64,000 nt of DNA from a virus. Taxonomy: Duplodnaviria > Caudoviricetes. Location: IMG/VR virus record IMGVR_UViG_3300017911_001939, positions 32,001 to 96,000 of that record, one strand, 5' to 3'. The translations under genes were made by a program, and so were the position numbers. Position 1 is the stretch's first letter. Every line of letters begins with the position of its first letter. The notes beneath the pieces are model-generated. The model worked only from the letters and a program-made list of their open reading frames with translations, did not search any database and was not told the DNA's origin. Positions 7,642 through 64,000 of this stretch are shown here, one piece after another.

Positions 7642-9473
7642 TGGCAGTCATTAAATCATCTGATCTTGATTTTGACAATATCAAGACCAATTTAAAAACG
7701 TATTTAAAGCAAAGTTCTGAGTTTGCCGATTATGATTTTGAGGCTTCAGGCTTATCAAATATTCTCGACGTATTGGCATATAATACGCACATTAACGGCC
7801 TCATTGCAAATATGGCTATTAATGAATCGTTTTTAAGTTCGGCACAATTAAGATCTTCTGCAGTATCTCATGCCGAAACGCTTGGTTATTATCCTCGTTC
7901 TAAAACAGGTTCTACGGCAACTGTTACGCTAAAAGCTGCAACCTCTGATACAACCACTGTGTCAGCAACTCTTCCTGCATATTCTTCATTTACCGCTAAT
8001 GTTGATGACGTATCTTATACATTCCAAACTACCGAAGCTTATACTGCATCAAATGATGGTAGTGGTAACTTTACATTTAAAACTACGGCAGGTAGTGACA
8101 ATATTATTATTAAAGAAGGTTCGCTTAAAACTAAAAACTTTATTGTGGGTGATACAGCAGATAATCAGGTCTATGTGATTCCTGATGAAAATATCGACAC
8201 ATCTACGATTGTTGTAAAAGTTTACGATACTACAACTAGTTCAACATTTACAACATACACAGATATTCAAAAGCAAGTTCGAATCAATACTACTTCGACA
8301 GTATTCATTGTGCGTGAAGTACCAAATGGCTATTTCGAACTGACATTCTCTGATGGTAATGTTCTTGGTAAATCGCCAGTTGCTGGCAATAAAATCGAAG
8401 TAACATATCTTCAAGTAAAAGGTGCAGTAGCTAATAATGCTACATCATTTGTGGCTGATAATAAAGTTACAGTTGGTGGCGTACAATATACACTGACTAC
8501 CACAAAAGTTGCTAACTCTGGTGGTGGCGCAGACAAAGAAACAATCTCGTCTATTAAGGCGAATGCACCTGTTGCCTTTGCTACTCAACAGCGTCTGGTA
8601 ACAGCTGAAGATTATAAAGCTTTGATCCTACAAAGATACTCATCGACAGTAGAAGATGTGATTGCATGGGGTGGTAACGATAATGTTCCTGCTACATATG
8701 GTAATGTATACGTCGCATTGAAGTTCAAAACAGGTGTTACAGCTGCTACACAGACTACCGTAAAAGATTCAATTAAATCAAATTTAGCAAATAACCTTGG
8801 TATCATGTCAATCGATACAATATTTTCTGATCCTCTCGATACATTCCTTGAGATTGCTACAACATTTAACTTTGATCCAGATTTGACGGGCGATACGGTT
8901 GATACTACACAGACAAATGCCCAAAATACTGTAAACAACTTCTTTACAGATAACCTTAATAAGTTTGGTGCAATCTTTAGAAAATCTCAATTGCTTACAA
9001 AAATTGATGCACTTTCTCCTGCGATTTTGAATACACAGCAATCGATTAAAGTACAACAAAGATTTAAGCCTACTCTTAATTCAAACACAAACGCAGATGT
9101 TAATTTCCCTGTCACATTGGCTACAGCAGATGATGTAAATTATCGAGTGACTACGACTAACTTCACTATGCTGGCTCAGAAGTGTTTTATTAGAAACACG
9201 CTAAAGAGTACGAAACTTGAGCTAATCAATGCAGAAACAAATGATGTAATTAGAGATAACATTGGATCGTATAATCCTGCGACAGGTGTTATTAGTTTTG
9301 TTGGGTTGAATGTAAGTGCATTCGAGGGTGAAAATATTAAAGTATCGGTAACACCTGCCGATGAAAATACAATCAAGCCATTAAGAAATTATATTCTGAA
9401 GGTTGATACTTCTAAGTCGTCTGCAAACGGCGTTACTGACTTCCAGAACACAGCGGTTACATTGAGCACATAA
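7641..9473 (+). CDS. gp6: baseplate wedge subunit
   Basis: LDFDNIK, FADYDFEASGL..LDVLAYNTH, ESFLSSAQLRSS, QQRLVTAEDY. Confidence 0.95.
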   Translation: MAVIKSSDLDFDNIKTNLKTYLKQSSEFADYDFEASGLSNILDVLAYNTHINGLIANMAINESFLSSAQLRSSAVSHAETLGYYPRSKTGSTATVTLKAATSDTTTVSATLPAYSSFTANVDDVSYTFQTTEAYTASNDGSGNFTFKTTAGSDNIIIKEGSLKTKNFIVGDTADNQVYVIPDENIDTSTIVVKVYDTTTSSTFTTYTDIQKQVRINTTSTVFIVREVPNGYFELTFSDGNVLGKSPVAGNKIEVTYLQVKGAVANNATSFVADNKVTVGGVQYTLTTTKVANSGGGADKETISSIKANAPVAFATQQRLVTAEDYKALILQRYSSTVEDVIAWGGNDNVPATYGNVYVALKFKTGVTAATQTTVKDSIKSNLANNLGIMSIDTIFSDPLDTFLEIATTFNFDPDLTGDTVDTTQTNAQNTVNNFFTDNLNKFGAIFRKSQLLTKIDALSPAILNTQQSIKVQQRFKPTLNSNTNADVNFPVTLATADDVNYRVTTTNFTMLAQKCFIRNTLKSTKLELINAETNDVIRDNIGSYNPATGVISFVGLNVSAFEGENIKVSVTPADENTIKPLRNYILKVDTSKSSANGVTDFQNTAVTLST

Positions 9474-10498
9474 TGCCTAAACATTTTACATCCAACGGAA
9501 GACGAGATCTAGTACTTACCACGTCCAAAACTGGTGAAGTATTACCTCAATATTATGAAAATGATAATTCTAAACTTATCAAATTACTTGATGAGTATTA
9601 TGATTTTTTGGATTCCGATGGATCTCAGGCATTTTCCGATACAATTAAAGAGATTGTATATGCTCGTGATACTGCCGAAACGAAGACAGAATTTCTTGAC
9701 GAATTAGTAAAAGAAATCGGTGATGGATTGCAGGTTTCTACATTCTTCCATCAACCAAGACTTATGGCTAAATTACTTGGTGGATTCTATAGATCAAAAG
9801 GTTCTATTGTATCGGCCGAAGGTTTCTTCCGCGGATTCTTTAATGAAGAAGTTACGGTCGAATATCCGAAGAAAGACATCTTTACGGTTGGCGAATCTCA
9901 AATTGGATTTGATTCGCAAAAGTTTATTCAGAATAACGGGATCTATCAGATTTTTTCTGTATTGCTTAAAGTTGGTATTTCTACACAAGACTACGAAACA
10001 CTTTATAAAAAGTTTGTACATCCTGCAGGATTTCACTTTGCTGGTGAGGTTACATCTGTTGAAGAAGGTGCGTTAACACTTTCAGGTCAAGGTCTAAATC
10101 CTCTCGATTCAGCAGCTGGTATTTCTACTCTTGCGTCTGAAGCAAATGTTATCTTCTCTACACCGTTCAGCGAACTTACCGCGTTCCTCGATTCTGGCGC
10201 AGATGAAGAAAGATATCGTGTTACTGTCGATCAACCAGTATCCGACTTCCAGGCTCTTACAGCAAATGAGATCTCGAAATTCTACCCAACGATTACAGCT
10301 CTTGTCGATCCAAACTCTTTCACATTCGACGACAGCGATACAACTGGCCGTCCAGACTTCTCACTGGCTGCCGAAACTATGGACAACGATCTCTACAGAA
10401 GAGATTTACCAACATTAACTCGATTCTTTATGTCTAACACTAATATCACATTCGATGATATCACAGAGACATTTGATGATGGTGGTGCTGGAAACTAG
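9473..10498 (+). CDS. gp7: baseplate wedge initiator (short gp7-like)
   Basis: LPQYY, YYDFL, FYRSKGS..FFR, KKFVHPAGF motifs; follows gp6. Confidence 0.75.
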   Translation: MPKHFTSNGRRDLVLTTSKTGEVLPQYYENDNSKLIKLLDEYYDFLDSDGSQAFSDTIKEIVYARDTAETKTEFLDELVKEIGDGLQVSTFFHQPRLMAKLLGGFYRSKGSIVSAEGFFRGFFNEEVTVEYPKKDIFTVGESQIGFDSQKFIQNNGIYQIFSVLLKVGISTQDYETLYKKFVHPAGFHFAGEVTSVEEGALTLSGQGLNPLDSAAGISTLASEANVIFSTPFSELTAFLDSGADEERYRVTVDQPVSDFQALTANEISKFYPTITALVDPNSFTFDDSDTTGRPDFSLAAETMDNDLYRRDLPTLTRFFMSNTNITFDDITETFDDGGAGN

Positions 10499-10499
10499 A

Positions 10500-10507
10500 T
10501 ATAAATA
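10500..10507 (+). promoter_or_regulatory. late promoter
   Basis: Intergenic TATAAATA followed by GAGG SD. Confidence 0.85.
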
Positions 10508-10539
10508 AAGTAAACCTTATTTTACAGAGGAATTAAAAA

Positions 10540-11361
10540 ATGGCAAGACAAAACATTGGTGTCGGCGCCTCCGCCAATGATGGTACTGGTGATACACTGC
10601 GCAGTGCAGGTACTAAGATCAATGATACCTTCGTTGAAATTTACCGTATGCTGGGTGGCGGAGACTCTGATAACCTTTCATCCCAAATCTCACTTGAAGA
10701 TAGTGCAATTGTATTCGAAGGCGCTTCTATCGATGCATTTGAAACTCGTCTGACAGTAGTAGATGCTACAGCCGATAGACAAATTCAATTACCTGATGCA
10801 GCTGGTATTGTTACGCTTAATGATGCTACACAGACATTAAGTAATAAGACTATTCAGGCTCCACAAATTAATTCACCAAAAATTGGTGCTGCGATCAACG
10901 ATTCAAATGGTAGCGAGTTAATTAGCTTTACATCTAATTCAACTGCGATTAACCAAATCAATATTGCAAATGCGGCAACAACAAATGCTCCTGTTCTTTC
11001 AGTAATTGGTACTGATGCGAATATCAATATGACAGTGAATTCAAAAGGTACTGGTTCGGTTGAGATTCGTAAAGCAGCATACACATCTTCTGAGATTACT
11101 GCAAACGGTGCAGCTTCTGCTAACGCTACTTACATCATCTGTAATAAAGCGACAGCATTGGCAATCTCTCTCGCTGATGGTACAACAACGGGTGAATACA
11201 AAATCTTTACGAACAAAGGTGCTGGTCTGGCAACAGTTACTCCTGCTAACTTCTCGGCTGGTTCATCTTTTGCAATCGCACAGAACGAAGCCGCTCAGTG
11301 TGTATGGGACGGAGCAAATTGGTTCCTTATCGGTAACCAAAGCGTCTGTACGGTAGTATAA
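10540..11361 (+). CDS. baseplate wedge/tail-fibre connector (gp9/gp10-type N-terminus)
   Basis: MARQNIGVGASANDGTGDTLRSAGTKINDTFVEIY N-terminal motif. Confidence 0.7.
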   Translation: MARQNIGVGASANDGTGDTLRSAGTKINDTFVEIYRMLGGGDSDNLSSQISLEDSAIVFEGASIDAFETRLTVVDATADRQIQLPDAAGIVTLNDATQTLSNKTIQAPQINSPKIGAAINDSNGSELISFTSNSTAINQINIANAATTNAPVLSVIGTDANINMTVNSKGTGSVEIRKAAYTSSEITANGAASANATYIICNKATALAISLADGTTTGEYKIFTNKGAGLATVTPANFSAGSSFAIAQNEAAQCVWDGANWFLIGNQSVCTVV

Positions 11362-11371: not shown

Positions 11372-12739
11372 ATGGTAGCAATTGTAACTGATCCACTGAA
11401 ACTAAAGTTCGCTGAATTTATTTTCAACGAAGCGACAAGCACTTCTGACAGTCATGAGTATTATATCGGTATCGGTAAGGCTGATACCTATGATAGCTCG
11501 GATACTGTTGCTACACCTGTTCGCACACTTCAAGAAGAAAGAGAAGCACGTAATAACCTACAATCTGTAAAGAAAGTAACTGGTACATCGTTCGTTATTC
11601 CACGATATAACTGGTCATCTGGTTCTACGTATTCTCCATGGCAAGATAATCAAACAGGTATTCCATCAAATACTTACTATGTAATGACAGAAGATAACGA
11701 AGTTTATATCTGTTTACAACAAGGTAAGTCTGCAACTGGTACATCGAATGCTTCTACTGTAAAGCCATCGTATACTGATGCTGGTGTGGCAGAAACGCAA
11801 GCCTTTGAAACATCTGATGGTTATCGCTGGAAGTTAATGTATGCGCTATCTGCATCGAGAGCAAATACATTCCTTTCTTCTGGTTTTATTCCATGTCAAA
11901 ATGTAACAATTGATTCTGGTTCGGCTAACGCATTTGAATTACAGCAGTTAAATATTCAAAACACCTCATTGCCTGGTGCAATTCTTGGTGTAGAAATTGT
12001 AGATGCTGGTACAGGTTATACATCTGCTCCTACTATTACATTCAAAGGCAACGGATCCGGTGCGACAGCAACTGCCACAATTTCTGGTGGTGCTATTGTA
12101 AAGGTTGAGATGGATAACGAATCTGCAGGTATGGGTTCTGGTTATGATTATGCTTCGGCCACTGTAACTGGTAACGCATCACTTCGACCAATCCTTGCAC
12201 CTCAAAAAGGTATTGGTAACGACGCTCGAGCAGATCTTAAATCATCTTCGATTATGTTTAACATTAAGCCGTCTGGTACTGAGAACGATACGTTCAATAT
12301 TACTAACGACTTTAGACAAATCTTATTGCTAAGAAATCTTGACGAAATGGATAGTGCACAAGATGGCAACCGCTATACAGGTACATCATCTAAAGCACAA
12401 AGATTCTTAACAATTACTGGTACAGTATCGGCATCAAACTTTGTTGTCGATGAAAAAATTACAGGCGGCACATCAGGTGTAACAGCGTTTGTTGACGAAC
12501 TCGATTCAAACTCTGGTAACAAGATTTTCTTCCATCAAAACAGCAATAATATTGCTGGTAACTTTACTGATGGAGAAACAATCACGGGTTCTGGTTCTGG
12601 TTCAGCAACTGTAGATAGTGGTGATAAACACACTGCGGTCGATAATCACTCTGGTGAAGTCTTATACATAGAGAACAGAGCACGTGTTATCCGCTCGAAC
12701 ACACAAACTGAAGATATTAAAGTAATTATTACGGTGTAA
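11372..12739 (+). CDS. gp8: baseplate wedge subunit
   Basis: VIPRYNWSSG..Y, YYVMT..VYICL, DGYRWKLMY, NDFRQI, SGEVLYIENR..QTEDIKVII. Confidence 0.9.
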   Translation: MVAIVTDPLKLKFAEFIFNEATSTSDSHEYYIGIGKADTYDSSDTVATPVRTLQEEREARNNLQSVKKVTGTSFVIPRYNWSSGSTYSPWQDNQTGIPSNTYYVMTEDNEVYICLQQGKSATGTSNASTVKPSYTDAGVAETQAFETSDGYRWKLMYALSASRANTFLSSGFIPCQNVTIDSGSANAFELQQLNIQNTSLPGAILGVEIVDAGTGYTSAPTITFKGNGSGATATATISGGAIVKVEMDNESAGMGSGYDYASATVTGNASLRPILAPQKGIGNDARADLKSSSIMFNIKPSGTENDTFNITNDFRQILLLRNLDEMDSAQDGNRYTGTSSKAQRFLTITGTVSASNFVVDEKITGGTSGVTAFVDELDSNSGNKIFFHQNSNNIAGNFTDGETITGSGSGSATVDSGDKHTAVDNHSGEVLYIENRARVIRSNTQTEDIKVIITV

Positions 12740-12742: not shown

Positions 12743-15700
12743 ATGGCAACAACACTTACCAATACTACGTTCTCCACTACCTATAAGGACGACTATAAAG
12801 ACTCCGATAATTTTCATCGGATTCTCTTTAATAGTGGTAAGGCGTTGCAAGCTCGCGAACTTACGCAGATGCAAACTATTATCCAAAACGAGATTCAACG
12901 TTTTGGTTCTAACATCTTCGTAGATGGCGGGGTTGTACAGCCTGGTGGCTTAACAGTTAACAACAAACTAGAATATATTAGACTTGCAGCTTCACAGCTG
13001 CCAGTAAATCTTGACGATATTATTGGTAAGACATTTACTGTAAAATCTCCTGACCCTGCACTAAGAGTAAAAGTTCTCAAAGCGGTTAGAGCAGATGGTT
13101 CTGATCCTGATACATTATATGTAGAATACGTATCTACTTCTGCTGGTACATCTTCATCTGCACCCGTTCGCGTAGGTGCATCTCAAGTTCTTGAGAATAC
13201 AGATCTTGGCTCATCATATGATATGACAATTGCATCATCGAATGCGGTTGGTCAAGGCACAGAAGTTTCTATCGCTAAAGGTAGTTTCTTTGTACAAGGT
13301 CACTTTGTATTCTGCGCCAAACAATCTATTTTCGCCGAAAAGTATTCTACAAATGCTAACAAAGATGTTGGCCTTAAAGTAGAAGAAGAAATCATTGGTG
13401 CAACAGATGATGATGGTCTATACGATAACCAAGGTGCAACTCCAAACTTAGCAGCTCCTGGTGCCGATCGTTATAGAATTAAGTTAACTCTTACAACTCG
13501 TGACGCAATCGATTCTACTGACAACTTTGTATATCTTGCAAAGGTAAGTTCTGGTAAAATCGTAGACGAATCACGTACAGATAATTCTTACAATGTTCTT
13601 AACGATGTATTAGCATTGAGAACAAAAGAAGAATCTGGTAACTATATCGTTAAGCCGTTTAATGCACAGTTTAACTCAAAGAATGATTCGAATCTTGAGC
13701 TTGAAATTAGTGATGGTATTGTATATGTAGATGGTTATCGTTTGAATGCAGACGGTAAGAAAATCAACGTACCAAAAGCACAAGATACAATTACAATTAA
13801 TAATGAAACGATTGTTGTCCAGTATGGTAACTATATCATGGGCAGCAACAGCACATCTAAAGGTTTGCCTGAAATTGACACATTGGCAAAACTAACACTA
13901 AGATCTGCAGCTACATTCGGTGGCGATGATCTTGGCACATGTCGCTGTCGTTTCGTCGAAGAAGATAATAGTGGTGATTCTCGCTTCTATCTCTTTGACA
14001 TCCAAATGAGACCTGGCAAAAACTTCAGCTCAGTTCGTTCTTTCGGTACTAGCACATCTGACTATATCGATGTCGTACTCGAAGGTGGTGTTGCCGTATT
14101 GAAAAATACTGGCAATAACGATCTACTGATGCCTCTGCCGAGAACACGTCCTACGAATACTGGTATTACGCATGATACTATTACTTTCTTGAAGAAGTAT
14201 TCGATGACGACTAACACAAGCGGTAACTCTACTGCTAATATCGCGGCTGGCGCTGGTCTCACATTTACGAATCTAAACGCATGGATTGCTGCGGCTGATG
14301 ATAGTGCCATTGACGGTTCTATTAATCTACAGCTCGATGGTACACAAGAAAACTTCTTCGTTAACGATGGTTCTGGTGTAGCAAGTAAGACATACGAAGT
14401 ATTGGCATACGTAACTAAAGGTTCTCCATCAAAGAGAACAAAGTCACTTAACAATACAACAATTACTAAAGCATGGCCTGGTGATGTAGAATCCGATGGT
14501 ACAGGTGCAGGCATTGAATTCCTTGCACTCGATAAGGCTGATATTTTTGAAGTCGAAGCAATTAAGATTGAAGACTCTGATGGTGCCGATATCACGACTA
14601 ACTTCAACATCGATAACGGTCAAAGAGATAACTACTATGGCATTGGTCGTATTGTCAAGAAAGCTGGCTCTACGATTCCAACTGGTGACATCTTTGTAAG
14701 ATACAAGTACTTTACACACGGCAATGGTGATTTCTTCGATATCACTTCATATCCTACTGCTTCAGTACCATACGACAAAGTTCCATCACATACACAAAAT
14801 GACGGTACAGTTGTATCGCTGAGAGATGTGATTGATTTCAGACCAGTTGCTGTACGAGATGCAGACAATGCTGATTCATCTATCTTATCATTTAACTTTG
14901 ATTCAAACGGTGCTGGTGGTAATCCAATTATTCAGTCTCTGCCTCAGTCAACTGACACATTTACGGCAGACATCGTATATTATATGCCAAGAGCCGATCG
15001 CCTTGTAGCTACGTTCCTCAACGAGAAAGGTGAACGCCTTCCGCGCGGTCAGGTTAAAGTAGTACAAGGTGTATCTTCTCTTGATCCTCAGCTTCCTGCT
15101 ATTCCGACAGGATCGATGCCGCTTTACAATATGAACCTGAATCCATTCACGTTGAATGAGTCAGATTTGACAACAGCATTTATTCCTGCCAAGAGATTTA
15201 CGATGGCAGATATTGCTGAGTTAGAACAGCGTATCGATACATTACAAGAATTGACCACACTGTCACTGCTTGAGGTTGATACTTCTAACCTTACAGTTCT
15301 TGACTCTGCTGGTAACGAAAGAACAAAAGCTGGTTTCTTAGTTGATAACTTTAAAGACTTTGCATTCTCTGCTGTTGGTCGTGATGAGTATCGTGCAGGT
15401 GTTGATGAGCTTGCGGGTTTACTTGAGCCATTACAAGAAGCACACAATACTCGCCTTATCTTCGATTCTGCAGATGCAAACTCTACTGTAATTCGTAAAG
15501 GTGATAACTTATATCTGCCTATCGATTCAGATGTTATGATGATCAATCAGGCTCTTGCAACAGAAACTGAGAATATTAACCCATTCGCAGTGATTGTTTC
15601 TCAAGGTCATATGGAATTATCTCCTTCTTCTGACGAATGGGTAGAAACTCGCTATGCACCTGATAACATTGTACAAGGTGAAACAGTAACAGAAAGATTG

Positions 15701-17845: not shown

Positions 17846-18069
17846 TGGATAAATACATAAATGTAGAAGGAAAAGCTGGTTTAGTAAGAAGTAAAGCTTC
17901 AGGCGCAATCATCAATGTGAATAGCAATGAGATGTCTCAAGCCAGACATAGAAAAAAAATCTGGAAAGATCAACAAGAAGAATTGCAAACTTTAAAAAAT
18001 GATGTAGCCGTGATGAAGGATTTGCTCTTACAACTAGTAGAGGAAAAGAATGGCCGTAACAACAATTAA
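17845..18069 (+). CDS. small conserved coiled-coil protein
   Basis: VEG..GLVR...SGAIIN motif plus coiled-coil C-terminus; commonly follows the large structural gene. Confidence 0.7.
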   Translation: MDKYINVEGKAGLVRSKASGAIINVNSNEMSQARHRKKIWKDQQEELQTLKNDVAVMKDLLLQLVEEKNGRNNN

Positions 18070-18580
18070 TCTGTCGGATCCAGTTTCTACCTGGGTTAAC
18101 AAGACTAATACAATCGCCACTAATGTTGGTGATTTGGCTACGCTATCGACATCCGATACAGCGAGTCTTGTTGCTGCCATTAACGAAATTAATGGTCTGA
18201 TAAATACAAATTTAAATGACTCAAACGAAATTAAAGGGATGTTCGTATCATCTACTTCTATTGAGTTTGATTCATCTGCCGGATCATTTAGCATTATTGA
18301 TTCAGCAGTTACTGGGGCAATGATAGATAATGATGCAATTGTAGAAAGGCATATTGCTGCAGCTTCAATTGTAAATAGTCATCTTTCACCTGGTGCGGTT
18401 GACACATTAGCACTTGCTGATGGAAATGTAACGAATGCTAAATTAGCTGATTCCTCTATCGGCTTCTCAAAAATTCAAGCTGGCGCAATTAAGTCAGTGA
18501 ATTTTGTTAATACAACTACGCTGTTGATTAAAGATTCTGCAGCTACAACATTGAAAACATTATATAGTCCTGGAAGTTAA
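18050..18580 (+). CDS. fibritin/whisker-like structural protein
   Basis: W..KTN, SLVAAINE motifs; repeated VT.AK(L/I)AD units. Confidence 0.55.
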   Translation: MAVTTINLSDPVSTWVNKTNTIATNVGDLATLSTSDTASLVAAINEINGLINTNLNDSNEIKGMFVSSTSIEFDSSAGSFSIIDSAVTGAMIDNDAIVERHIAAASIVNSHLSPGAVDTLALADGNVTNAKLADSSIGFSKIQAGAIKSVNFVNTTTLLIKDSAATTLKTLYSPGS

Positions 18581-19551: not shown

Positions 19552-20085
19552 ATGGCTTTTCACTGGGAAGAAGGAATTGAATACGCCCGTTATATTGATG
19601 AAGATCGTCAAAATATCGAGGTAATGCATATTATTGAAGACGATGAAAATATTCATGGTCGTTCAGCCAAATTGCATGTATTACCTGCTGATGATAACGA
19701 TGTGCAATTCAAAGCTTTACTCGAGCATTTCACATATGATGATATTATGGAAATGACATATAGCTATAATCAAAATGCAGAACGTGCATTCGAAGAGCAA
19801 GTTATAGCAATCGCCCAAAAATCTGGAGTACTAGCTACTCTAGATGTTGACGTTGTTTCTTATGAATATGTCGATAAGCTTATCGATATTCTCTTCTTAG
19901 AAAAAGGTATTAAAGATAAAGAACTAAAAGAACTTATCTTTAAAACCAAACTTAGATTATTTGAAACTGATTTGGTTAAAAATAATAATAATAAAGAACT
20001 TAAAAGTTCATTACGCAAATCATCGTCACTAAAAGATATTTTTTATATTATGATGCAGATTGAGGAAGATACTCCTCAAACCTAG
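19552..20085 (+). CDS. hypothetical protein
   Basis: ORF with AAGGA SD; no motif recognised. Confidence 0.6.
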   Translation: MAFHWEEGIEYARYIDEDRQNIEVMHIIEDDENIHGRSAKLHVLPADDNDVQFKALLEHFTYDDIMEMTYSYNQNAERAFEEQVIAIAQKSGVLATLDVDVVSYEYVDKLIDILFLEKGIKDKELKELIFKTKLRLFETDLVKNNNNKELKSSLRKSSSLKDIFYIMMQIEEDTPQT

Positions 20086-20848
20086 AAAAATCTTTATTAA
20101 CCACATGATGAAGACTTGCGCCTAAATGCTTAGTCGAAAATGTGTTATCAATTATCCAATTCCAACTTAGTCCAATAGGATTAATTGGTATTTTATAAAA
20201 TTCTTTTATAAAAGAAAAATAGACCTCATTGTTCCTAGAGAATGATGAGGCTATTTCTTTTGGATAGATGTTATCAACTAGTGCTTCATCAAAAATAGTA
20301 TCTGCATAATCCAATCTTTCACTTAATCTAAAATCTTCAATAGCGTTTTTATTGCCAATTAACACGCCGGTGTTAGCAATTTGGTTATTACCGCTGATAC
20401 CTTCTAATAGTAACATTGCATTTTTGCAACATGCCTTTACTACCATATTCATTTTATCAAAATCAATTGTATCAATCCACCAATCACCATATACCCGTTC
20501 TCCCCAATTAGGCTTAGTATCGATAAAATGTGCACCTACATATTTGTGAGTAGCATGTTTATCAAAAATATTTTGAGCGCTTGTGGGTATTACGTCTAAG
20601 TCTAAATAAACTACTTCATCATATTCGTTTGCTAAGTCTTCAAACCTATATAATTTTTCAAACTGTAGGTCATCATAATCTGGAATAGAAGGAGTAAAAC
20701 AATGATATTCTGCATTACACAGATTAGCATAATCTTTGTGAGCAGATATTAATCGATCTTTATATTTTGCAAACGCATCTTTCTTTTCTTGTGGAGATGA
20801 AGTGTGCCTATGAACATCTGCCCAAATACTATAGATAATTCTTTTCAT
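20048..20848 (-). CDS. GT-A glycosyltransferase (DxD)
   Basis: VVYLDLDVIP, NTGV, W..HHVVNK; paralog of the upstream gene; start trimmed to MKRIIYS. Confidence 0.75.
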   Translation of the reverse strand: MKRIIYSIWADVHRHTSSPQEKKDAFAKYKDRLISAHKDYANLCNAEYHCFTPSIPDYDDLQFEKLYRFEDLANEYDEVVYLDLDVIPTSAQNIFDKHATHKYVGAHFIDTKPNWGERVYGDWWIDTIDFDKMNMVVKACCKNAMLLLEGISGNNQIANTGVLIGNKNAIEDFRLSERLDYADTIFDEALVDNIYPKEIASSFSRNNEVYFSFIKEFYKIPINPIGLSWNWIIDNTFSTKHLGASLHHVVNKDFSRFEEYLPQSAS

Positions 20849-31219: not shown

Positions 31220-31280
31220 ATAAATACCATCACCAATTTATTTATATGTATAAATAGGTCTGTATGGTTTTGTATAAATA
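31219..31280. promoter_or_regulatory. divergent late promoter cluster: TATAAATA on + at 31219, 31249, 31273 and on - at 31239-31246
   Basis: Four exact T4 late boxes in 62 bp between two divergent operons. Confidence 0.88.
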
Positions 31281-55179: not shown

Positions 55180-55183
55180 GAGA

Positions 55184-56361: not shown

Positions 56362-57378
56362 ATGGCCAACAGAGTACCACTCGTTGTAGCAAATCAAAAG
56401 ATGCGGGAAATCGCCGACGGGGATACTCTTGACCTAACAGGCAATCCGCTTATCGTTGGTGGTGATCTTACACCATCTGTCGATTCCGCATACGATCTTG
56501 GTAGCTCATCAAAGAAATGGAAAGACCTGCATCTTTCAGGTTCTACAATCCATTTGGGCAATATTCTTCTGCAAGATAGCGGAGGAAAATTTGTTACGCG
56601 TGATTCTGCAAATGGTCCAGTTACATCATTCCAACTTTCAAATAATACCACAGACGATGTAGCAGAAGGTTCATCCAATCTTTATCATACAACAGCGAGA
56701 GCAAGAAATGCTATCAACGTTGTAGATGCTGGTGGAGATGGTTCATTCGCATATGACTCTTCGCTTGGTAAGTTAACTTATACTGGGCCTTCGGCTTCTG
56801 AAGTAAGAGCACACTTCACGGGTGGTTCTGGTATTGGTATCACTAACGGTACTATTGATCTCGATTCTGATCTTACAGTTACTGGTAACTTAATCGTTAC
56901 ACAGAACCTGACTGTTCAAGGTACAGAAACTATTATTAATTCAACGACTCTTTCGGTTAATGATAAGACAATTATTTTGGCAGATAGTGCGGCTGACTCA
57001 GCTGCTGCAAGTGGAGCTGGTATCGAGGTGTATGCAGCTGGTGCTTCTATCACATACGATCATTCAAATGTAGAATGGGATATTAATCGTAAGATTAATG
57101 TACGTGGTACTACTGTGGATGATGGTGGTATTCAAATTAAAACAACTACAGGTTCTGTTGCATATGTAGATTTATTCTGTGAATCAGGTAACTCTCATAG
57201 AGTACGGGTTAAATCACCTACACATTCACAATATTCTGGAAATATTGATGTTATTCTTCCTGCAGAAGCGGGTACATTGGCTACAGTTGGTAATGATTCG
57301 ACTGATCGCTTACTTATTAAAGATTCAAGTGGTTCAACAATTAAAACAATTCAAGGCGTCGGTAACTCGGCATTATAA
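56362..57378 (+). CDS. fibre/collar protein upstream of the neck genes
   Basis: YDLGSSSKKWKDLHLSG, TDDVAEGSSNLY, shared segment with ORF 31924. Confidence 0.75.
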   Translation: MANRVPLVVANQKMREIADGDTLDLTGNPLIVGGDLTPSVDSAYDLGSSSKKWKDLHLSGSTIHLGNILLQDSGGKFVTRDSANGPVTSFQLSNNTTDDVAEGSSNLYHTTARARNAINVVDAGGDGSFAYDSSLGKLTYTGPSASEVRAHFTGGSGIGITNGTIDLDSDLTVTGNLIVTQNLTVQGTETIINSTTLSVNDKTIILADSAADSAAASGAGIEVYAAGASITYDHSNVEWDINRKINVRGTTVDDGGIQIKTTTGSVAYVDLFCESGNSHRVRVKSPTHSQYSGNIDVILPAEAGTLATVGNDSTDRLLIKDSSGSTIKTIQGVGNSAL

Positions 57379-58137: not shown

Positions 58138-58138
58138 T

Positions 58139-58732
58139 ATGGCTAGAAATATTTACTTCACCGACAAATTCAAAGGTGAGACAGAATTATATGAAAACAT
58201 AGTCATAGAATCACTCAAGATCTATGGTCAAGATGTTTATTACATTCCACGAGACATCGTAAACGAAGATAAAATCTTCGGCGATGATATCGAGTCGTCT
58301 TTTAATTCCTCATATAAAGTAGAAATGTACCTCGACAACATTGAAGGTTTTGAGGGCGAAGGAGATTTGTTCACTCGTTTTGGCGTAGAGATTCGAGACG
58401 AATGCACATTTGTAGTTGCGCGGCGTAGATGGTCGCAGACGGTATCACGCTATGATAATGATATTAACAGTGATAGACCTCGTGAAGGTGACTTAGTCTA
58501 TCTTCCGCTATCTAATTCGCTTTTCCAAATTACACACGTTGAACATGAGGCACCTTTCTATCAGGTATCAAACCTCAATGTGTATAAACTACGTGCACAA
58601 TTATTCGAATATACTGGCGAAGATCTCGATACGGGCGTAGAAGCTATCGATGATATCGAAGTAGATTACGCGCATCAATATAAAGTTAAGGTCGCTGCAC
58701 CGAAGACAGCGAAAGGCACGGCGGTATTGTAA
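58139..58732 (+). CDS. gp14: neck/head-closure protein, N-terminal part
   Basis: ESLKIYGQDVYYIPR, GDLFTRFG.EIRD, RPREGDLVY, PFYQ, FEY..E..DTG. Confidence 0.92.
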   Translation: MARNIYFTDKFKGETELYENIVIESLKIYGQDVYYIPRDIVNEDKIFGDDIESSFNSSYKVEMYLDNIEGFEGEGDLFTRFGVEIRDECTFVVARRRWSQTVSRYDNDINSDRPREGDLVYLPLSNSLFQITHVEHEAPFYQVSNLNVYKLRAQLFEYTGEDLDTGVEAIDDIEVDYAHQYKVKVAAPKTAKGTAVL

Positions 58733-59940
58733 TGGCACAGATCAAGCATTTAACAGATATTACACTTACCGATTCTGGCCTTATGTACAGTCAGGCACCA
58801 ACAGTTACATTTACTGGTGGTTTTGCTGATTCGTCTGATCATATTAAGTTTGGTAATAACTCGCTTGATATGGCGGCTAATCATTATATCTACGAATTAG
58901 ATAGTGGTGAGGCATCAAGCCCGGATGGATTCTTTGCATTCTGGTTGTGGGTTGATAGTGATGCACTACCTGATTCTGCTGGTTCAAATCTAAAACCACT
59001 TGTAGAATTTGGCGATGGTCCAAACCTTAATCGTAGGCGACTTGGCGTTGATAATTTGGGTAGATTAAAGTCTACATTAAAATATGCAAATGCTAATTCA
59101 TTCTTTACCTGGGAAAACCAAGGTTCATATGGACGTATTACAGAAAATCAATGGAACCATGTAATCTTTGGATTTAGTGGTGCTGATCAAGGCCCGGGAA
59201 CAAGAAGGGCAGAGATTGCCATTAATGGTATTAGAACATATTACACAAATTCAACAGCATTCTCTGGAATGTTTGGAGAATCTGGCACTGTATTCGGTTC
59301 TCTTAATCAGGGTGCATATGGAATTGGTGATGTAGTATTTGACTCACCAACTGGCATGTATATGGATAATCTGTATCTTGACAGTGACGATGCAACATTT
59401 ACACTTAGCACAGAAATTGCTGCGCTATACACTAATGATTCTGGCGGAGGTAACTGGTTTAGTAATTCGCTTACAAAACATATGACCTTTGATAATGATT
59501 CTGCTGAGGTATCAACTACAATCGATTCTGACGGTAAAGTATCTAGTATCACAGTCACAAATGGTGGTAATTATATTAGCGCGCCAACAGTAGCATTTAC
59601 AACAGTACCCGCATCTGATGTCAGACAAGGCGATAGCGCATCTCAAGTATTATCTTCAGGTGTTATTGTAAGGGGTGAAGTACTCAAGTATTCTGACTCT
59701 GACGGCATTATCCATATTGGTCATGTTGGTGCAGATGATGGAAAATATCATGACTTCCAAACAGGAAGAACAATTACATTCGGTGGTTTAGATCGTACAT
59801 ATTATAGAGAAGTTGTATTTGTAGGTGATTCAGATCTTAAGTTATCAGAGAACGAACAGAATAGAGACTTTAGCTCTATCTCTGATGACTTCCTTGACTT
59901 TACCGAAGATAATCCATTTGGTGAAGTGGAGAATAATTAA
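58732..59940 (+). CDS. gp14 C-terminal part with LamG/ConA-like insertion
   Basis: KFGNNSL, FWLW, NQWNHV (LamG-like); ends with the gp14-type DFLDFTEDNPFGE. Confidence 0.72.
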   Translation: MAQIKHLTDITLTDSGLMYSQAPTVTFTGGFADSSDHIKFGNNSLDMAANHYIYELDSGEASSPDGFFAFWLWVDSDALPDSAGSNLKPLVEFGDGPNLNRRRLGVDNLGRLKSTLKYANANSFFTWENQGSYGRITENQWNHVIFGFSGADQGPGTRRAEIAINGIRTYYTNSTAFSGMFGESGTVFGSLNQGAYGIGDVVFDSPTGMYMDNLYLDSDDATFTLSTEIAALYTNDSGGGNWFSNSLTKHMTFDNDSAEVSTTIDSDGKVSSITVTNGGNYISAPTVAFTTVPASDVRQGDSASQVLSSGVIVRGEVLKYSDSDGIIHIGHVGADDGKYHDFQTGRTITFGGLDRTYYREVVFVGDSDLKLSENEQNRDFSSISDDFLDFTEDNPFGEVENN

Positions 59941-60734
59941 TGTTTGGTACACACTTTTACCACGAAAAGACTAGAAAATGCGTAGCAGCATTCGGACGGC
60001 TGTTTAACAACATTTATGTTGTTCGTAAAACCAACAGCGGCACAGGTTTGTCTCAACTCAAAGTTCCTTTGTCTTATGCTCCTAAAGCAAAATACTTAGA
60101 TCGTATTCGAGAAAACCCAGACCTTGACACAGATACAAAAGTTGCACTAAAGTTACCTCGTATGTCGTTCGAGATTACGAGCATTAATTACGATACGACT
60201 CGACAACTTTCTAAACTTAATAGCGTGCAAGGTTCAAATAGTAATACTGCACGTAATAAGTTGTTTACTGGTGTCCCATATGTTTTAGGATTCCAGTTAA
60301 ACATTTATGCAAAATCTCAAGATGATGCTTTACAAATTATGGAGCAAATCTTACCAACTTTTAATCCACAATATACACTTACAATGTTGCCATTGAAAGC
60401 TGACTATCCTACATTTAAGGAAGATATTCCTATTAGTATCGCGGGTGTAGGGTTTACAGATGATTTCGATGGCGAGTTAGCAGCACGAAGAACGATTGTT
60501 TATACTATCGACTTCGAAATGAGAATTCAATATCATAGCGGAATCAGTAGTTCTTCTATTATTCGCCAATCAAATGCACGCATCTTCGACCAAGGTGGAG
60601 GCGTGAGCGGCGATTCAGATACAAGACTTGAAACAATTCAGGTAAATCCTGATCCGTTAACAACTATAGGACTAGCAGACAGTGACTTCGGATTCACAAC
60701 AACCATCTTCGACGCAGATTCAGACTACAGATAA
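59940..60734 (+). CDS. gp15: tail sheath stabilizer/terminator
   Basis: MFGTHFYH, FGRLFNNI, VPLSYAPK, LPRMSFE, QILPTFNP. Confidence 0.95.
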   Translation: MFGTHFYHEKTRKCVAAFGRLFNNIYVVRKTNSGTGLSQLKVPLSYAPKAKYLDRIRENPDLDTDTKVALKLPRMSFEITSINYDTTRQLSKLNSVQGSNSNTARNKLFTGVPYVLGFQLNIYAKSQDDALQIMEQILPTFNPQYTLTMLPLKADYPTFKEDIPISIAGVGFTDDFDGELAARRTIVYTIDFEMRIQYHSGISSSSIIRQSNARIFDQGGGVSGDSDTRLETIQVNPDPLTTIGLADSDFGFTTTIFDADSDYR

Positions 60735-62614: not shown

Positions 62615-62620
62615 AAAAAT

Positions 62621-62628
62621 TATAAATA
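62621..62628 (+). promoter_or_regulatory. late promoter for gp18
   Basis: Intergenic TATAAATA. Confidence 0.88.
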
Positions 62629-62688
62629 GTTACGATAGTTGAATAACCGTATTATGAGTCATATAATTTTTAACCGAAGAGGAAAGCA

Positions 62689-64000
62689 ATGGCACTTTTT
62701 ACTCCATCACAATCTCCTGCGGTAGTAGTCAAAGAAGTAGATCTGACAGGCGGCGTGCCTAATGTACAGTCTACTACTGGTGCTATTGTAGGTAATTACC
62801 GGTGGGGTCCTGTAGATGAGAGAACACTCATCACAAATGAAGCAGGTCTTATCGAGACTTTTGCTACACCGGACACCACTAATAACATCGATTTCATGAA
62901 TGCTGCGATGTTCCTGCAGTATTCTAACTCTCTACAAGTTGTTCGCGGGAATAACGGCGGAACAAACTCGACTGCAAATATCGGTCAAACTAGCAGCTAC
63001 AATCCTGCTAATTATACTGATCCTGTAGTCAAGAACAAATCAAATTTCGATACTCAATTGGCTGCTCTCGACTCTGACGAGCACACGTTTGTAGCGAGAT
63101 TCCCTGGCGATCTTGGTAACTCATTAAGAGTTTCAATTTGCCCGAAATCAACTGACGACTCTGCATTTGATAACTGGGTTTATAAATCTAGCTTTGACGG
63201 TGCACCAAGCGAATCATTTTACGATTCAAATCGTGACGGTTCTGCTACAGAAGTACACGTCGCAGTTGTCGATAAAAACGGCAAATTCTCTGGAACAAAA
63301 GGTACAGTTCTTGAAACATATCCATATGTCTCACTGGCCTCTAACTCAAAGAACTCAAACGGTTCTACAGCGTTCGTTAAAGACATTATTAACGGTCGTT
63401 CAGAATACGTTTATCTTGTTGGATTCGACTCTGACTTTAACGCTGGTAACGCTGGTACAGATCTTACACCTGGCACAGCAAAATCATATGCGACTGCAGA
63501 CGCTGCAGTAGTTAACTATGATTTTGACTCAGGCGCAAATTCATCTGCACTGACTCAAGGCATTTTCCAGACAGCATACGATTTGTTCGATGATAAAGAA
63601 CAAGTTGAAGTAGACTTCCTTATTGCACCAGGTCTTAATGACTCTGCAGATCAAAAGAGCATGGTTAATAGCTTGATTGGTGCGGCAGTTACTCGTAAAG
63701 ACTGTATGGTTGTTGCTTCACCACACCGTGACGCAATTGTTGGTCAGACTAACGAAGCTACAATTACAACAAACATTACAGGCTATGCTAATACACTGCT
63801 TCAGTCTTCTTACCTCGTCAACGATGGTAACTACCTGAAAGTTTACGATAAGCATAACGATCAATTCATCGAGATTCCTGCGGCATCTTCAACTGCTGGT
63901 ATTATGGCGCTGACAGATAGAGATGCAGCTCCTTGGTTCTCACCTGCAGGCGTACGCCGTGGTCAATATCTTGGTGTGACATCGCTGAGCTACAACCCTG
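62689..64000 (+). CDS. gp18: tail sheath protein (3' end outside window)
   Basis: Open frame from ATG 62689: SPAVVVKEVDLT, WGPV, ARFPGDLGNSL, RKDCMVVASP, PWFSPAG.RRG. Confidence 0.95.
   Translation, partial: MALFTPSQSPAVVVKEVDLTGGVPNVQSTTGAIVGNYRWGPVDERTLITNEAGLIETFATPDTTNNIDFMNAAMFLQYSNSLQVVRGNNGGTNSTANIGQTSSYNPANYTDPVVKNKSNFDTQLAALDSDEHTFVARFPGDLGNSLRVSICPKSTDDSAFDNWVYKSSFDGAPSESFYDSNRDGSATEVHVAVVDKNGKFSGTKGTVLETYPYVSLASNSKNSNGSTAFVKDIINGRSEYVYLVGFDSDFNAGNAGTDLTPGTAKSYATADAAVVNYDFDSGANSSALTQGIFQTAYDLFDDKEQVEVDFLIAPGLNDSADQKSMVNSLIGAAVTRKDCMVVASPHRDAIVGQTNEATITTNITGYANTLLQSSYLVNDGNYLKVYDKHNDQFIEIPAASSTAGIMALTDRDAAPWFSPAGVRRGQYLGVTSLSYNP

What the first reader, a model, noticed from the sequence alone, without database searches (positions are those of the whole stretch)
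9473..64000. Virion-wide Asp-Ser (D-S) signature on exposed structural proteins: candidate sequon of a phage-encoded virion-modification ('cloaking') system
Seen (manual DS counts): 23 in the 532-aa fibre (33638), 13 in the 402-aa gp14 C-part, about 17 in the 1700-aa protein, 9 in each of the 553-aa and 338-aa fibres, 6 in gp8 and 6 in the 146-aa ORF 35236. There are 5 each in gp7 and the 176-, 131-, 241- and 280-aa ORFs, 4 in the 94-aa ORF, at least 6 in the partial sheath, and 3 clustered at the gp15 C-terminus. Controls: gp6 (610 aa, D/S/T-rich) has 1, the 318-aa S/T-rich protein 0, gp13 0, gp14-N 0 and gp17 1. The usual context is (I/L/V/F/A/D)-D-S-(A/D/G/S/N). Both TCN and AGY Ser codons are used, so selection acts on the protein. 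DS also recurs at equivalent positions of paralogous motifs (AGPITIDSG / AGPIEIDSG / AGPLSVDSG; SSDSDS in both small paralogs). Known: D-(S/T)-x is the O-glycosylation sequon in Bacteroidota, and staphylococcal Ser-Asp repeats are glycosylated by SdgA/SdgB. Inference: the phage has dotted its fibres, baseplate, neck and sheath with a recognition site for its own late-expressed glycosyltransferase/tailoring operon (20048-31219), giving a densely decorated particle that may resist proteases, grazing or anti-phage sensing, or tune adsorption.
Basis: partly seen in the sequence, partly recalled or inferred. Interest (0 to 1): 0.93.

Follow-up and report, generated by a model that had tools for sequence, protein, structure and literature searches.

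The report
Asp-Ser motif on phage tail proteins
The outer tail, baseplate and fibre proteins of this uncultured marine T4-like phage carry the motif Asp-Ser-(Ala/Asp) about six times more often than chance; the excess is real and selected, and may mark sites where the phage modifies its tail, but no modification is shown and the neighbouring sugar-enzyme genes do not track it.

Summary
DS is the most over-represented of 391 dipeptides in the window (195 observed, 119 expected). In the plus-strand genes from 9473 onward it is 176 against 90 (z about 10). DSA and DSD are each about 6-fold enriched, while DS followed by L/I/V/K/E is depleted. TCN and AGY serine codons are equally enriched, so the bias is in the protein.

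The signature is not virion-wide. It covers fibres, outer baseplate, a neck-associated protein, the gp15 tail and the outer sheath domains. Head, inner baseplate, gp13 and gp14-N lack it.

It is clade-specific: six other T4-like genomes score 0.8-1.0. In the conserved sheath, gp15, gp8 and VrlC-like proteins, DS[AD] is 16 against 2.9 here but not in distant orthologs. DS sites are better conserved than other dipeptides and sit at strand ends and helix starts.

The cassette holds three GT8-like transferases and sugar-tailoring enzymes behind a late-promoter motif. It does not track the motif: phage Mosig has the cassette without the motif, and relatives with other islands have the motif.

My reading is a selected recognition motif, possibly a modification site (about 0.4), against a purely structural cap/turn idiom (about 0.3). 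This scan has noted the same signature on other marine phage DNA.

The parts
9473..10498 (+). gp7-like outer baseplate wedge protein (341 aa), 5 DS against 2.5 expected
10540..11361 (+). Baseplate-to-fibre connector-like protein (273 aa), 3 DS against 1.4 expected
11372..12739 (+). gp8 baseplate wedge protein (455 aa), 6 DS against 3.1 expected
12743..17845 (+). VrlC-like giant baseplate protein (1700 aa). 17 DS against 10.2 expected; 8 DS[AD] against 1.6, while orthologs have 1-2
18050..18580 (+). 176-aa fibre-like protein, 5 DS against 1.6 expected
20048..21704 (-). Two overlapping paralogous GT8-like glycosyltransferase genes (279 and 291 aa). Neither is DS-rich
22316..23023 (-). 235-aa retaining GT-A glycosyltransferase (GT8/GT6/GT24-like fold) with D81-L-D83
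22995..24545 (-). NodU/CmcH-type carbamoyltransferase
27942..29006 (-). DegT/PseC/LegC-like sugar aminotransferase
29823..30563 (-). QueC-like PP-loop ATPase (SGGLDS motif, C-terminal CxxCxxC). Present in most but not all motif-rich relatives
31239..31246 (-). TATAAATA (T4 late-promoter consensus) about 20 nt upstream of the first cassette gene
31924..33585 (+). 553-aa fibre protein, 9 DS against 5.4 expected, including LADSAADSAA
33638..35236 (+). 532-aa fibre with a gp9/tailspike-type N-terminal anchor. 23 DS against 7.4 expected. Residues ~50-260 hold repeats of DSxxhhxLh-DS(A/D)Yhxx R type; the C-terminal domain is beta-rich
35236..35676 (+). 146-aa ORF carrying the same DS repeat, 6 DS against 1.6 expected
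47432..47716 (+). 94-aa ORF made of four DS-initiated repeat units, 4 DS against 0.7 expected
56362..57378 (+). 338-aa fibre protein, 9 DS against 3.3 expected
58732..59940 (+). 402-aa neck-associated protein downstream of gp14-N, 13 DS against 4.2 expected. Orthologs in relatives are also DS-rich (L007: 18 against 6.3)
59940..60734 (+). gp15 with three DSD in its last 40 residues. These are conserved in the clade and absent from distant orthologs
62689..64000 (+). Tail sheath (partial in the window). 6 DS, 4 of them DS[AD], aligning mostly to T4 gp18 outer domains I/II

Best explanation
Asp-Ser-(Ala/Asp, less often Ser/Gly/Asn), usually preceded by Leu/Ile/Phe, is a short linear motif under protein-level selection. 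It has been installed in many unrelated, surface-exposed tail proteins of one clade of uncultured marine T4-like (pelagimyophage-related) phages. The marked proteins are fibres, small fibre modules, outer baseplate, a neck-associated protein, the gp15 C-terminus and the outer sheath domains.

The motif occupies polar turn and helix-start positions. In distant relatives these positions hold other cap or turn residues (D-G, D-A, D-T, N-S), and in this clade they have been re-tuned to D-S.

The reading I think most likely is that the motif is recognised by a trans-acting factor. The leading candidate is an enzyme that modifies the Ser (O-glycosylation) during late infection, in the cytoplasm, before or during tail assembly.

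Shown: the statistics, the clade specificity, the positional conservation, the location in predicted structure, and the presence of late-promoter-linked GT-A and sugar-tailoring genes.

Inferred and untested: that any modification occurs, which enzyme does it, and what it is for. The specific claim that the whole 20-31 kb cassette is the cognate system is not supported.
For: - DS is the top dipeptide (z 10) and DSA/DSD are 6x enriched.
- AGY and TCN serine codons are equally enriched.
- Six comparator T4-like genomes have DS O/E 0.82-0.96 and DS[AD] about 1x.
- In the non-homologous core proteins sheath, gp15, gp8 and VrlC, DS[AD] is 16 against 2.9 (p 7e-8). Close relatives (L003, L005, L006, L007) show the same. 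Distant orthologs show 0-3 against 0.7-3.6.
- At those sites, distant orthologs already have D at position 1 at 3.2x background, and S/T/A/G at position 2 in 59% of cases.
- Only 39 of 173 sites fall in recurrent longer motifs. The three most enriched proteins contribute 36% of the excess, against 42-79% (six of seven above 50%) for the idiom dipeptides of comparator phages.
- DS is conserved in 65% of cases against 40% for all dipeptides at 45-65% ortholog identity.
- The motif is strict: E cannot replace D (ES 0.65), T cannot replace S (DT 0.36-0.66 on the fibre side), and DSE is 0 against 3.8.
- Sheath sites align to the outer domains of T4 gp18.
- Three GT8-like GT-A genes and sugar-tailoring genes sit beside the fibre genes behind a TATAAATA motif.
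- From my own knowledge: cytoplasmic Ser glycosylation at turns of beta-rich adhesins, and of staphylococcal Ser-Asp repeats, are precedents. Phage virion glycosylation is reported for mycobacteriophages (Freeman et al. 2023, seen only as reference 61 of PMC12801897).
Against: - No candidate enzyme tracks the motif. Mosig has the orthologous cassette but no motif. L075 has a homolog of the 235-aa transferase but no motif. The PP-loop gene is missing at the syntenic place in motif-rich L070.
- No Maf-type transferase (PF01973, PF20157) was found in the 123-kb record.
- DS[AD] is not avoided in the phage's non-virion proteins (12 against 13.0). A promiscuous tripeptide-specific cytoplasmic enzyme would be expected to cause avoidance.
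- A tail-fibre assembly chaperone homolog, usually not a virion component, is also DS-rich (5 against 1.4).
- Sites are positionally conserved rather than turning over. In the fibre model 21 of 23 sit exactly at strand ends or helix starts, as a purely structural cap or turn would.
- Comparator phages also show strong lineage-specific dipeptide idioms in their fibres (FE z 8.2 and TL z 7.5 in HTVC008M).
- The published reading of such islands is host O-chain modification (PMC7029224).
Confidence: 0.4

Rival explanations
1. Purely structural idiom. Hydrophobic-Asp-Ser-small is an Asx/ST-type cap that ends beta-strands and starts short helices in the fibre building blocks of this clade. It spread by duplication and shuffling of fibre modules, and no modification is involved.
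For: - In the AlphaFold model of the 532-aa fibre, 21 of 23 DS lie at strand C-ends or helix N-termini.
- The fibre holds a repeat in which every unit starts with DS, and the same repeat recurs in the 94-aa and 146-aa ORFs.
- All 120 listed homologs of that fibre are DS-rich (O/E 3.1), with nearly invariant DS columns.
- DS columns are more conserved than other D or S columns (0.61-0.64 against 0.43).
- The +1 preference for D/S/G/N matches type I turn propensities (my own knowledge).
- Comparator phages have their own fibre dipeptide idioms.
- Non-virion proteins show no avoidance of the motif.
Against: - It does not explain why conserved, non-homologous core proteins (sheath, gp15, VrlC) gained DS[AD] only in this clade (16 against 2.9, p 7e-8). 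These gains are at positions where relatives manage with D-G, D-A, D-T or N-S.
- Most sites (134 of 173) are in unique contexts.
- Exclusion of Glu, Thr and Pro-type alternatives is stricter than generic capping rules require.
- The helical repeat region of the model has pLDDT around 30.
Confidence: 0.3
2. The late-expressed 20048-31219 glycosyltransferase/tailoring operon is the cognate system that glycosylates DS serines across the whole virion as a cloak.
For: The operon has three GT8-like GT-A enzymes, a sugar aminotransferase, a carbamoyltransferase, a methyltransferase-like protein and radical SAM enzymes. A TATAAATA motif lies upstream. It sits between the VrlC-like gene and the fibre genes. 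The closest relatives L070, L073 and L074 share both the cassette and the motif.
Against: - Mosig has an orthologous syntenic cassette but DS O/E 0.76-1.02.
- L071 and L072 have 2.3-2.6x DS with mostly different islands.
- L075 has the 235-aa transferase homolog without the motif.
- Head proteins carry no motif.
- GT8 enzymes mostly extend glycans or LPS. The authors who described these islands propose host O-chain modification (PMC7029224).
Confidence: 0.12
3. The motif is a ligand-binding site rather than a modification site. For example, it could be a carboxylate-hydroxyl site for Ca2+/Mg2+ that stiffens fibres in sea water, or a docking site for the many small adaptor proteins encoded at 42-56 kb.
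For: - The motif is acidic and small (DSD, DSDG, DSN), exposed and positionally conserved.
- This would also explain acquisition in unrelated exposed proteins.
- It would explain the lack of avoidance in cytoplasmic proteins.
Against: - Relatives living in the same sea water lack the motif.
- Only 8 of 43 DSD are DSDG, and none forms a canonical DxDxDG loop.
- DSA, the commonest form, has only one acidic ligand.
- There is no direct evidence.
Confidence: 0.12
4. Artefact of composition, DNA-level signal or paralogy. Candidate causes are local D/S-rich composition, selection for GANTC sites, or a few repeated motifs counted many times.
For: - GANTC is 1.57x enriched in the fibre region.
- Some DS lie in paralogous motifs.
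- D and S are abundant in these proteins.
Against: - Within-protein shuffles control for composition. SD is 1.1 and DD 0.75.
- GANTC excess is confined to codon phase 0, and DS encoded with AGY serine codons is equally enriched.
- Removing the three most enriched proteins leaves O/E 1.81.
- 134 of 173 sites are in unique contexts.
Confidence: 0.03

Closest known systems
Host recognition cluster (HRC) of pelagimyophages and cyanomyophages (Zaragoza-Solas et al. 2020, PMC7029224)
   Same: A hypervariable region between the VrlC-like gene and neck gene gp14 that mixes tail-fibre genes with GT8 glycosyltransferases, LPS-type sugar genes and radical SAM cassettes. The window has exactly this layout, and phage Mosig has an orthologous cassette.
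   Different: In the passages of the paper that I searched for glycosyltransferases, modification and tail fibres, I found no sequence motif on the fibres. It proposes that the transferases alter the host O-chain. The Asp-Ser signature is an additional, clade-restricted feature.
General protein O-glycosylation of Bacteroidota, sequon D-(S/T)-(A/I/L/V/M/T/S/G/F/C) (PMC8729774)
   Same: Asp immediately before the modified hydroxy-amino acid, and Ala, Ser or Gly accepted at +1.
   Different: Here Thr is not used (DT about 1.0 or lower). L/I/V at +1 are depleted and Asp at +1 is 6x enriched. The Bacteroidota system acts on extracytoplasmic proteins, whereas tails assemble in the cytoplasm. The nearest cultured relatives infect SAR11 and OM43, not Bacteroidota.
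Virion glycosylation of mycobacteriophages (Freeman et al. 2023, Cell Host Microbe; seen only as reference 61 of PMC12801897, details from my own knowledge)
   Same: Phage-encoded glycosyltransferases next to structural genes, and a virion surface proposed or shown to be sugar-coated.
   Different: As I recall it, capsid and tail-tube subunits are modified there. Here capsid and tube lack the motif, and the marked proteins are fibres, outer baseplate, neck and sheath. Nothing is shown biochemically here.
Cytoplasmic Ser glycosylation of bacterial adhesins: SdgA/SdgB on staphylococcal Ser-Asp repeats, and autotransporter heptosyltransferases (my own knowledge)
   Same: Ser next to Asp, or Ser at turns of beta-rich surface proteins, modified in the cytoplasm before export or assembly.
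   Different: There are no long (SD)n arrays here, only SSDSDS hexapeptides and dispersed single sites. The transferases present are GT8-like GT-A enzymes and were not found to be related to those enzymes.
Helix N-cap and Asx/ST-turn motifs of protein structure (my own knowledge)
   Same: Asp or Ser at the first position of a helix or tight turn, a hydrophobic residue before and small or polar residues after. This is the position of DS in the predicted fibre structure.
   Different: Generic caps tolerate N, T, G, P and E alternatives. Here one exact dipeptide dominates, and only in one clade.

Membership tests
Pelagimyophage/cyanomyophage host recognition cluster (HRC) | Variable region lying between the VrlC-like gene and neck gene gp14 | tested here: met
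   VrlC-like gene at 12743-17845 (phrog_358; DUF4815 in relatives) and gp13/gp14 at 57382-58732. The island and fibre genes lie between them (PMC7029224).
Pelagimyophage/cyanomyophage host recognition cluster (HRC) | Contains tail-fibre genes together with GT8 glycosyltransferases, LPS-type sugar genes and radical SAM genes | tested here: met
   Three GT8-like proteins, an aminotransferase, a carbamoyltransferase and radical SAM enzymes, and fibre genes.
Bacteroidota O-glycosylation sequon | Asp at -1 of the acceptor | tested here: met
   DS O/E 1.95; ES 0.65 and NS about 1.0.
Bacteroidota O-glycosylation sequon | Ser or Thr both serve as acceptor | tested here: not met
   DT O/E 0.99 in the window and 0.36-0.66 on the fibre side of relatives.
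Bacteroidota O-glycosylation sequon | +1 residue A/I/L/V/M/T (extended: S/G/F/C) | tested here: not met
   DSL, DSV and DSI total 6 against 18.3 expected. DSD is 44 against 7.1, and Asp is not in the sequon (PMC8729774).
Bacteroidota O-glycosylation sequon | Targets are extracytoplasmic proteins of a Bacteroidota host | not testable with these tools
   The host is unknown. The nearest cultured relatives infect SAR11 and OM43. That phage tails assemble in the cytoplasm is established knowledge.
SdgA/SdgB-type Ser-Asp repeat glycosylation | Long tandem (Ser-Asp)n arrays as substrate | tested here: not met
   Only SSDSDS in two small paralogs. SD O/E is 1.1 and sites are dispersed.
Maf-type (PF01973) flagellin-like O-glycosyltransferase systems, proposed for this motif in earlier notes of this scan | A PF01973 or Maf_flag10 domain protein encoded by the phage | tested here: not met
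   No match at E <= 1 for PF01973 or PF20157 in the 123-kb record. The record is estimated 73% complete, and very divergent members could be missed.
Phage virion glycosylation (mycobacteriophage type) | Phage-encoded glycosyltransferases in or beside the structural module | tested here: met
   Three GT-A genes at 20048-23023, with a late-promoter motif at 31239-31246.
Phage virion glycosylation (mycobacteriophage type) | Glycan mass on virion proteins | not testable with these tools
   This needs mass spectrometry or glycan staining of virions or co-expressed proteins.
Helix N-cap / Asx-ST turn structural motif | Sites lie at the first residues of helices or directly after beta-strands | tested here: met
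   21 of 23 DS in the AlphaFold model of the 532-aa fibre. The beta-rich C-terminal half has pLDDT 80-90, but the helical repeat region is only about 30.
Helix N-cap / Asx-ST turn structural motif | Interchangeable with other cap or turn residues in homologs | tested here: inconclusive
   Distant orthologs use D-G, D-A, D-T, N-S and similar at the same columns. Within the clade, however, DS is held far more tightly than other dipeptides.

The most novel reading that the evidence does not exclude
A clade of abundant, uncultured marine T4-like phages encodes its own sequon, Asp-Ser-(Ala/Asp). It has been written into dozens of exposed tail, baseplate, neck and fibre proteins and is read in the cytoplasm by a phage-encoded late enzyme that attaches a tailored sugar to the Ser. 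This would be the first sequon-directed glycosylation of a phage tail, and it could tune adsorption or protect the tail in sea water.
Probability: 0.25. Interest if true: 0.85.

Novelty: new variant of a known kind. Interest (0 to 1): 0.6.

Why it matters
If the motif is a modification site, it would show that very abundant ocean phages chemically decorate their host-recognition apparatus. Such decoration is invisible to gene annotation, yet it could shape host range, particle stability and grazing losses.

It would also suggest a testable function for some of the puzzling sugar-tailoring genes that sit among the fibre genes of marine myophages.

If the motif is only structural, it is still a useful marker. 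It is a simple sequence flag for exposed fibre modules of this clade, and a reminder that strong motif statistics alone do not prove a sequon.

Either way, the tests are concrete, because short DS-rich fragments and single candidate enzymes can be expressed together.

Tried and rejected
1. A DNA-level cause. D-S encoded GAY-TCN creates GANTC, and GANTC is 1.57x enriched in the fibre region. But the excess is confined to codon phase 0, and AGY-encoded DS is just as enriched. Rejected.

2. Local D/S-rich composition. SD is 1.1 and DD 0.75. Rejected.

3. A few repeats or paralogous motifs. Only 39 of 173 sites cluster, and O/E is still 1.81 without the three most enriched proteins. This explains part of the signal, not all.

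4. A general property of T4-like structural proteins. Six comparator genomes show none. Rejected.

5. Co-occurrence with the cassette, with the 235-aa transferase and with the QueC-like PP-loop gene. None tracks the motif cleanly. The sample is small and phylogenetically non-independent.

6. The Maf-type transferase lead from earlier notes of this scan. No PF01973 or PF20157 match in the record.

7. A 7-deazaguanine pathway reading of the QueC-like and radical SAM genes. Only weak, N-terminal or generic matches were found. Left open.

8. Literature search for the repeat strings (DSAYV and similar). Only irrelevant hits.

9. Foldseek of the fibre model. It identified only the N-terminal gp9/tailspike-type anchor and said nothing about DS sites.

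10. A profile search of the 235-aa transferase against solved-structure sequences found nothing. The fold search was needed.

11. Whole-record searches of the ENA contigs behind L070-L072 were not possible.

12. Near-identity DNA search in the cultured phage collection found nothing.

13. The Freeman et al. paper is not held in the library.

Caveats: ORFs were called mechanically (longest ATG ORFs), so some starts may be off.

Full report
WHAT THE WINDOW IS. The window lies in a 123-kb virus record, at record coordinates 32001-96000. CheckV estimates the record as 73% complete. The gene order is T4-like: hub and inner baseplate genes, gp6, a gp7-like gene, gp8, and a 1700-aa VrlC-like protein. 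Next comes a minus-strand enzyme island, then fibre genes and about 30 small fibre-module ORFs, then gp13, gp14-N, a 402-aa ORF, gp15, terminase and sheath. The sheath is only about 37% identical to its best cultured matches: Pelagibacter phages Mosig and HTVC008M, Methylophilales phage Melnitz, Caulobacter phage Cr30 and cyanophages. Uncultured relatives with 56-70% identical sheaths and many fibre homologs occur in marine metagenomes.

With residues shuffled within each protein, DS is the most over-represented of 391 dipeptides (195 against 118.7, z 8.2). In the plus-strand ORFs from 9473 onward it is 176 against 90.2 (z 10.1). In the remaining ORFs of the window DS ranks 335 of 345.

The bias is directional and residue-specific. 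SD is 1.1, DT 1.0, ES 0.78 and DD 0.75.

The context is hydrophobic (L/I/F) at -1 and small or acidic at +1. Only 5% of +1 residues are hydrophobic, against a 31% background. As tripeptides, DSA is 47 against 7.3 and DSD 44 against 7.1. DSS and DSG are about 3x. DS followed by L, V, I, K or E totals 6 against 25.5.

Serine codons in DS are used in proportion to overall use. D-S(TCN) is 1.92x and D-S(AGY) 2.00x. The 1.57x excess of GANTC in this region is a by-product, confined to codon phase 0. Selection therefore acts on the protein.

WHERE IT IS AND IS NOT. Across the whole record the excess is confined to record positions 40-48 kb and 64-96 kb. Capsid, portal, tube, prohead proteins, gp6, gp25, the hub proteins, gp13, gp14-N, the 318-aa protein, terminase and a 12-member family of ~180-aa ORFs are not enriched. 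So the signature is not virion-wide. It marks the tail periphery.

Only the 532-aa fibre and the 402-aa ORF pass multiple-test correction individually. Observed exceeds expected in 36 of 54 ORFs of the region, against 37 of 112 elsewhere. The three most enriched proteins account for only 36% of the excess, and without them O/E is still 1.81.

IT IS CLADE-SPECIFIC. I fetched six whole comparator genomes: HTVC008M, Mosig, Cr30, Melnitz, T4 and P-SSM2. Their DS O/E is 0.82-0.96, and no 10-kb bin exceeds about 1.4. Their tail and fibre modules give DS z between -1.8 and 0.7 and DS[AD] about 1x.

The comparators do have their own strong fibre idioms: FE z 8.2 and TL z 7.5 in HTVC008M, and GG z 7.0 in Melnitz. 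For most of these, however, over half of the excess sits in three large repetitive proteins (share 0.42-0.79, six of seven above 0.5).

Uncultured relatives of this phage share the signature. The gp14-downstream protein of L007 has 18 DS against 6.3. The fibre sides of L070, L071 and L072 are at 2.3-2.6x, with DT at 0.36-0.66, and DSA/DSD at 6-9x. All 120 listed homologs of the 532-aa fibre are DS-rich (O/E 3.1).

THE MOST TELLING TEST. Sheath, gp15, gp8 and the VrlC-like protein are conserved, mutually non-homologous T4-type tail proteins. In them, DS[AD] occurs 16 times against 2.9 expected here (p 7e-8). It is similarly enriched in the close relatives L003, L005, L006 and L007. It occurs 0-3 times against 0.7-3.6 in Mosig, Melnitz, HTVC008M, P-SSM2, T4 and Cr30. 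gp6, gp13, portal, capsid and terminase of this phage have none.

At these sites distant orthologs often already carry Asp at the first position (3.2x background). They carry Ser, Thr, Ala or Gly at the second position in 59% of cases. Pre-existing polar turn positions were therefore re-tuned to Asp-Ser in this clade.

The six sheath sites align to T4 gp18 residues 109, 127, 224, 312, 341 and 380. By my recollection of the gp18 structure, five of these lie in the outward-facing domains I and II.

Inheritance of a fibre-module idiom cannot explain this pattern. It points to a clade-specific force acting on the motif itself in exposed tail proteins.

STRUCTURAL CONTEXT. An AlphaFold model of the 532-aa fibre, built from a 41-sequence alignment, has a confident beta-rich C-terminal half (pLDDT 80-90). 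Its repeat region at residues 126-268 is poorly defined (pLDDT about 30). Of the 23 DS, 21 lie directly after a strand or at the first residues of a helix.

The repeat reads DSxxhhxLh-DS(A/D)Yhxx R, where h is hydrophobic, and every unit begins with DS. It recurs in the 94-aa and 146-aa ORFs. DS columns are more conserved than other Asp or Ser columns (0.61-0.64 against 0.43).

Across clade orthologs at 45-65% identity, DS is retained in 65% of cases, against 40% for all dipeptides. Sites are thus exposed but positionally fixed. That fits both a structural cap and a site-specific modification. It does not look like the shifting sites of a glycan shield.

THE CASSETTE. The island at 20048-31219 has lower G+C (0.31 against 0.38-0.40). 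It encodes two paralogous GT8-like proteins of 279 and 291 aa. It also encodes a 235-aa protein that matches phrog_1962. That protein folds with pLDDT 94 as a retaining GT-A enzyme. Its nearest folds are LARGE1, the UGGT catalytic domain, glycogenin, LgtC and GT6 enzymes, and it has an invariant D81-x-D83.

Other genes are a NodU-like carbamoyltransferase, a GDSL-like protein, two radical SAM enzymes and a PseC/LegC-like aminotransferase. There are also a QueC-like PP-loop ATPase, a nitroreductase-like protein and several unknowns. A TATAAATA motif lies about 20 nt upstream of the first gene, on its strand. Late expression is therefore plausible but inferred.

This is the host recognition cluster described for pelagimyophages: fibres plus GT8 transferases and radical SAM cassettes between VrlC and gp14. 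Its authors read it as host O-chain modification (PMC7029224).

DOES THE CASSETTE TRACK THE MOTIF? It does not.
- Mosig carries a syntenic orthologous cassette: carbamoyltransferase 59%, aminotransferase 50%, radical SAMs 51-59% and the 291-aa transferase 46% identical. Its structural genes have DS O/E 0.76-1.02.
- L071 and L072 have largely different islands yet strong DS enrichment.
- Homologs of the 235-aa transferase are present in every motif-rich relative seen. They are also present in L075 (43% identity), whose fibre-side genes have DS O/E 0.96, and more remotely in Mosig.
- The QueC-like gene is present in L071 (three copies), L072, L073 (two) and L074, and absent from all motif-poor genomes and from cultured phages. 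It is missing at the syntenic place in motif-rich L070. The sample is one clade, so this is only a lead.
- Earlier notes of this scan on other genomes proposed a small Maf-like transferase as the co-varying enzyme. No PF01973 or PF20157 match exists in this record.
- DS[AD] is not avoided in the phage's other proteins (12 against 13.0).
- A tail-fibre assembly chaperone homolog is also DS-rich.

COMPARISON WITH KNOWN SYSTEMS. The Bacteroidota sequon D-(S/T)-(A/I/L/V/M/T/S/G/F/C) shares only the Asp. Thr is not used here, hydrophobic +1 residues are depleted and Asp at +1 is favoured. That system also acts outside the cytoplasm (PMC8729774).

There are no long Ser-Asp arrays of the staphylococcal kind. 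Phage virion glycosylation is known for mycobacteriophages; I saw this only as a citation, and the paper is not held.

VERDICT. A selected, exposed, sequon-like motif and a neighbouring late glycosyltransferase operon both exist, but the operon does not co-vary with the motif and no modification is shown.

My probabilities are as follows:
- Recognition by a trans-acting factor, most likely a modifying enzyme: about 0.4.
- A purely structural cap/turn idiom: about 0.3.
- A ligand or metal site: about 0.12.
- Artefact: below 0.05.
- The remainder (about 0.15) is unassigned.

The same signature has been noted repeatedly by this scan in other marine T4-like phage DNA, with follow-ups split between the same two readings. 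I found no paper describing it.

Noticed in passing
window 36888-42109: A second enzyme cassette lies inside the fibre operon. It holds a 352-aa U32-like (Fe-S hydroxylase-type) protein and a 184-aa SAM methyltransferase, which together match the fused 519-aa family phrog_1458. It also holds a 307-aa DUF401/CitMHS-like membrane protein, a phrog_1417 protein and two unknowns. These ORFs are Ser-poor and carry almost no DS.
   Followed up: partly
window 29823-30563 (-); L071 3949-6337; L073 1105-2579: A QueC-like PP-loop ATPase with an SGGLDS motif and a C-terminal CxxCxxC has no homolog in cultured phages. It is present in one to three copies in most motif-rich relatives. Its substrate is unknown.
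   Followed up: partly
window 45089-56319: A family of 12 paralogous ~170-200-aa ORFs is interleaved with other small fibre-module ORFs. This family itself is not DS-enriched (14 against about 11.5).
   Followed up: partly
window 31219-31280: Four TATAAATA late-promoter motifs, three on the plus strand and one on the minus, are packed into the 90-nt divergent gap between the cassette and the fibre genes.
   Followed up: partly
window 58139-59940: The neck gene gp14 is short (197 aa, T4_neck-protein domain). It is followed by a separate 402-aa DS-rich ORF that matches the C-terminal part of a 'head closure Hc2' family (phrog_460). In relative L007 this ORF is 566 aa.
   Followed up: no
window 63300-64000 region and the whole fibre block (record 63.3-96 kb): GANTC sites, the motif methylated by CcrM-type enzymes, are 1.57x over-represented. 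This is purely a side effect of GAY-TCN coding for Asp-Ser.
   Followed up: yes
HTVC008M (loci L012-L013, record 44-55 kb); Mosig structural genes: Comparator phages have their own strong fibre dipeptide or tripeptide idioms: FE and TL in three giant HTVC008M fibres, and DSS 17 against 6.7 in Mosig. These were not explained.
   Followed up: no
   Followed up: partly
window 20001-32000: The cassette has lower G+C (0.31-0.35) than the flanking structural genes (0.38-0.40). This is consistent with a mobile or separately evolving island.
   Followed up: no
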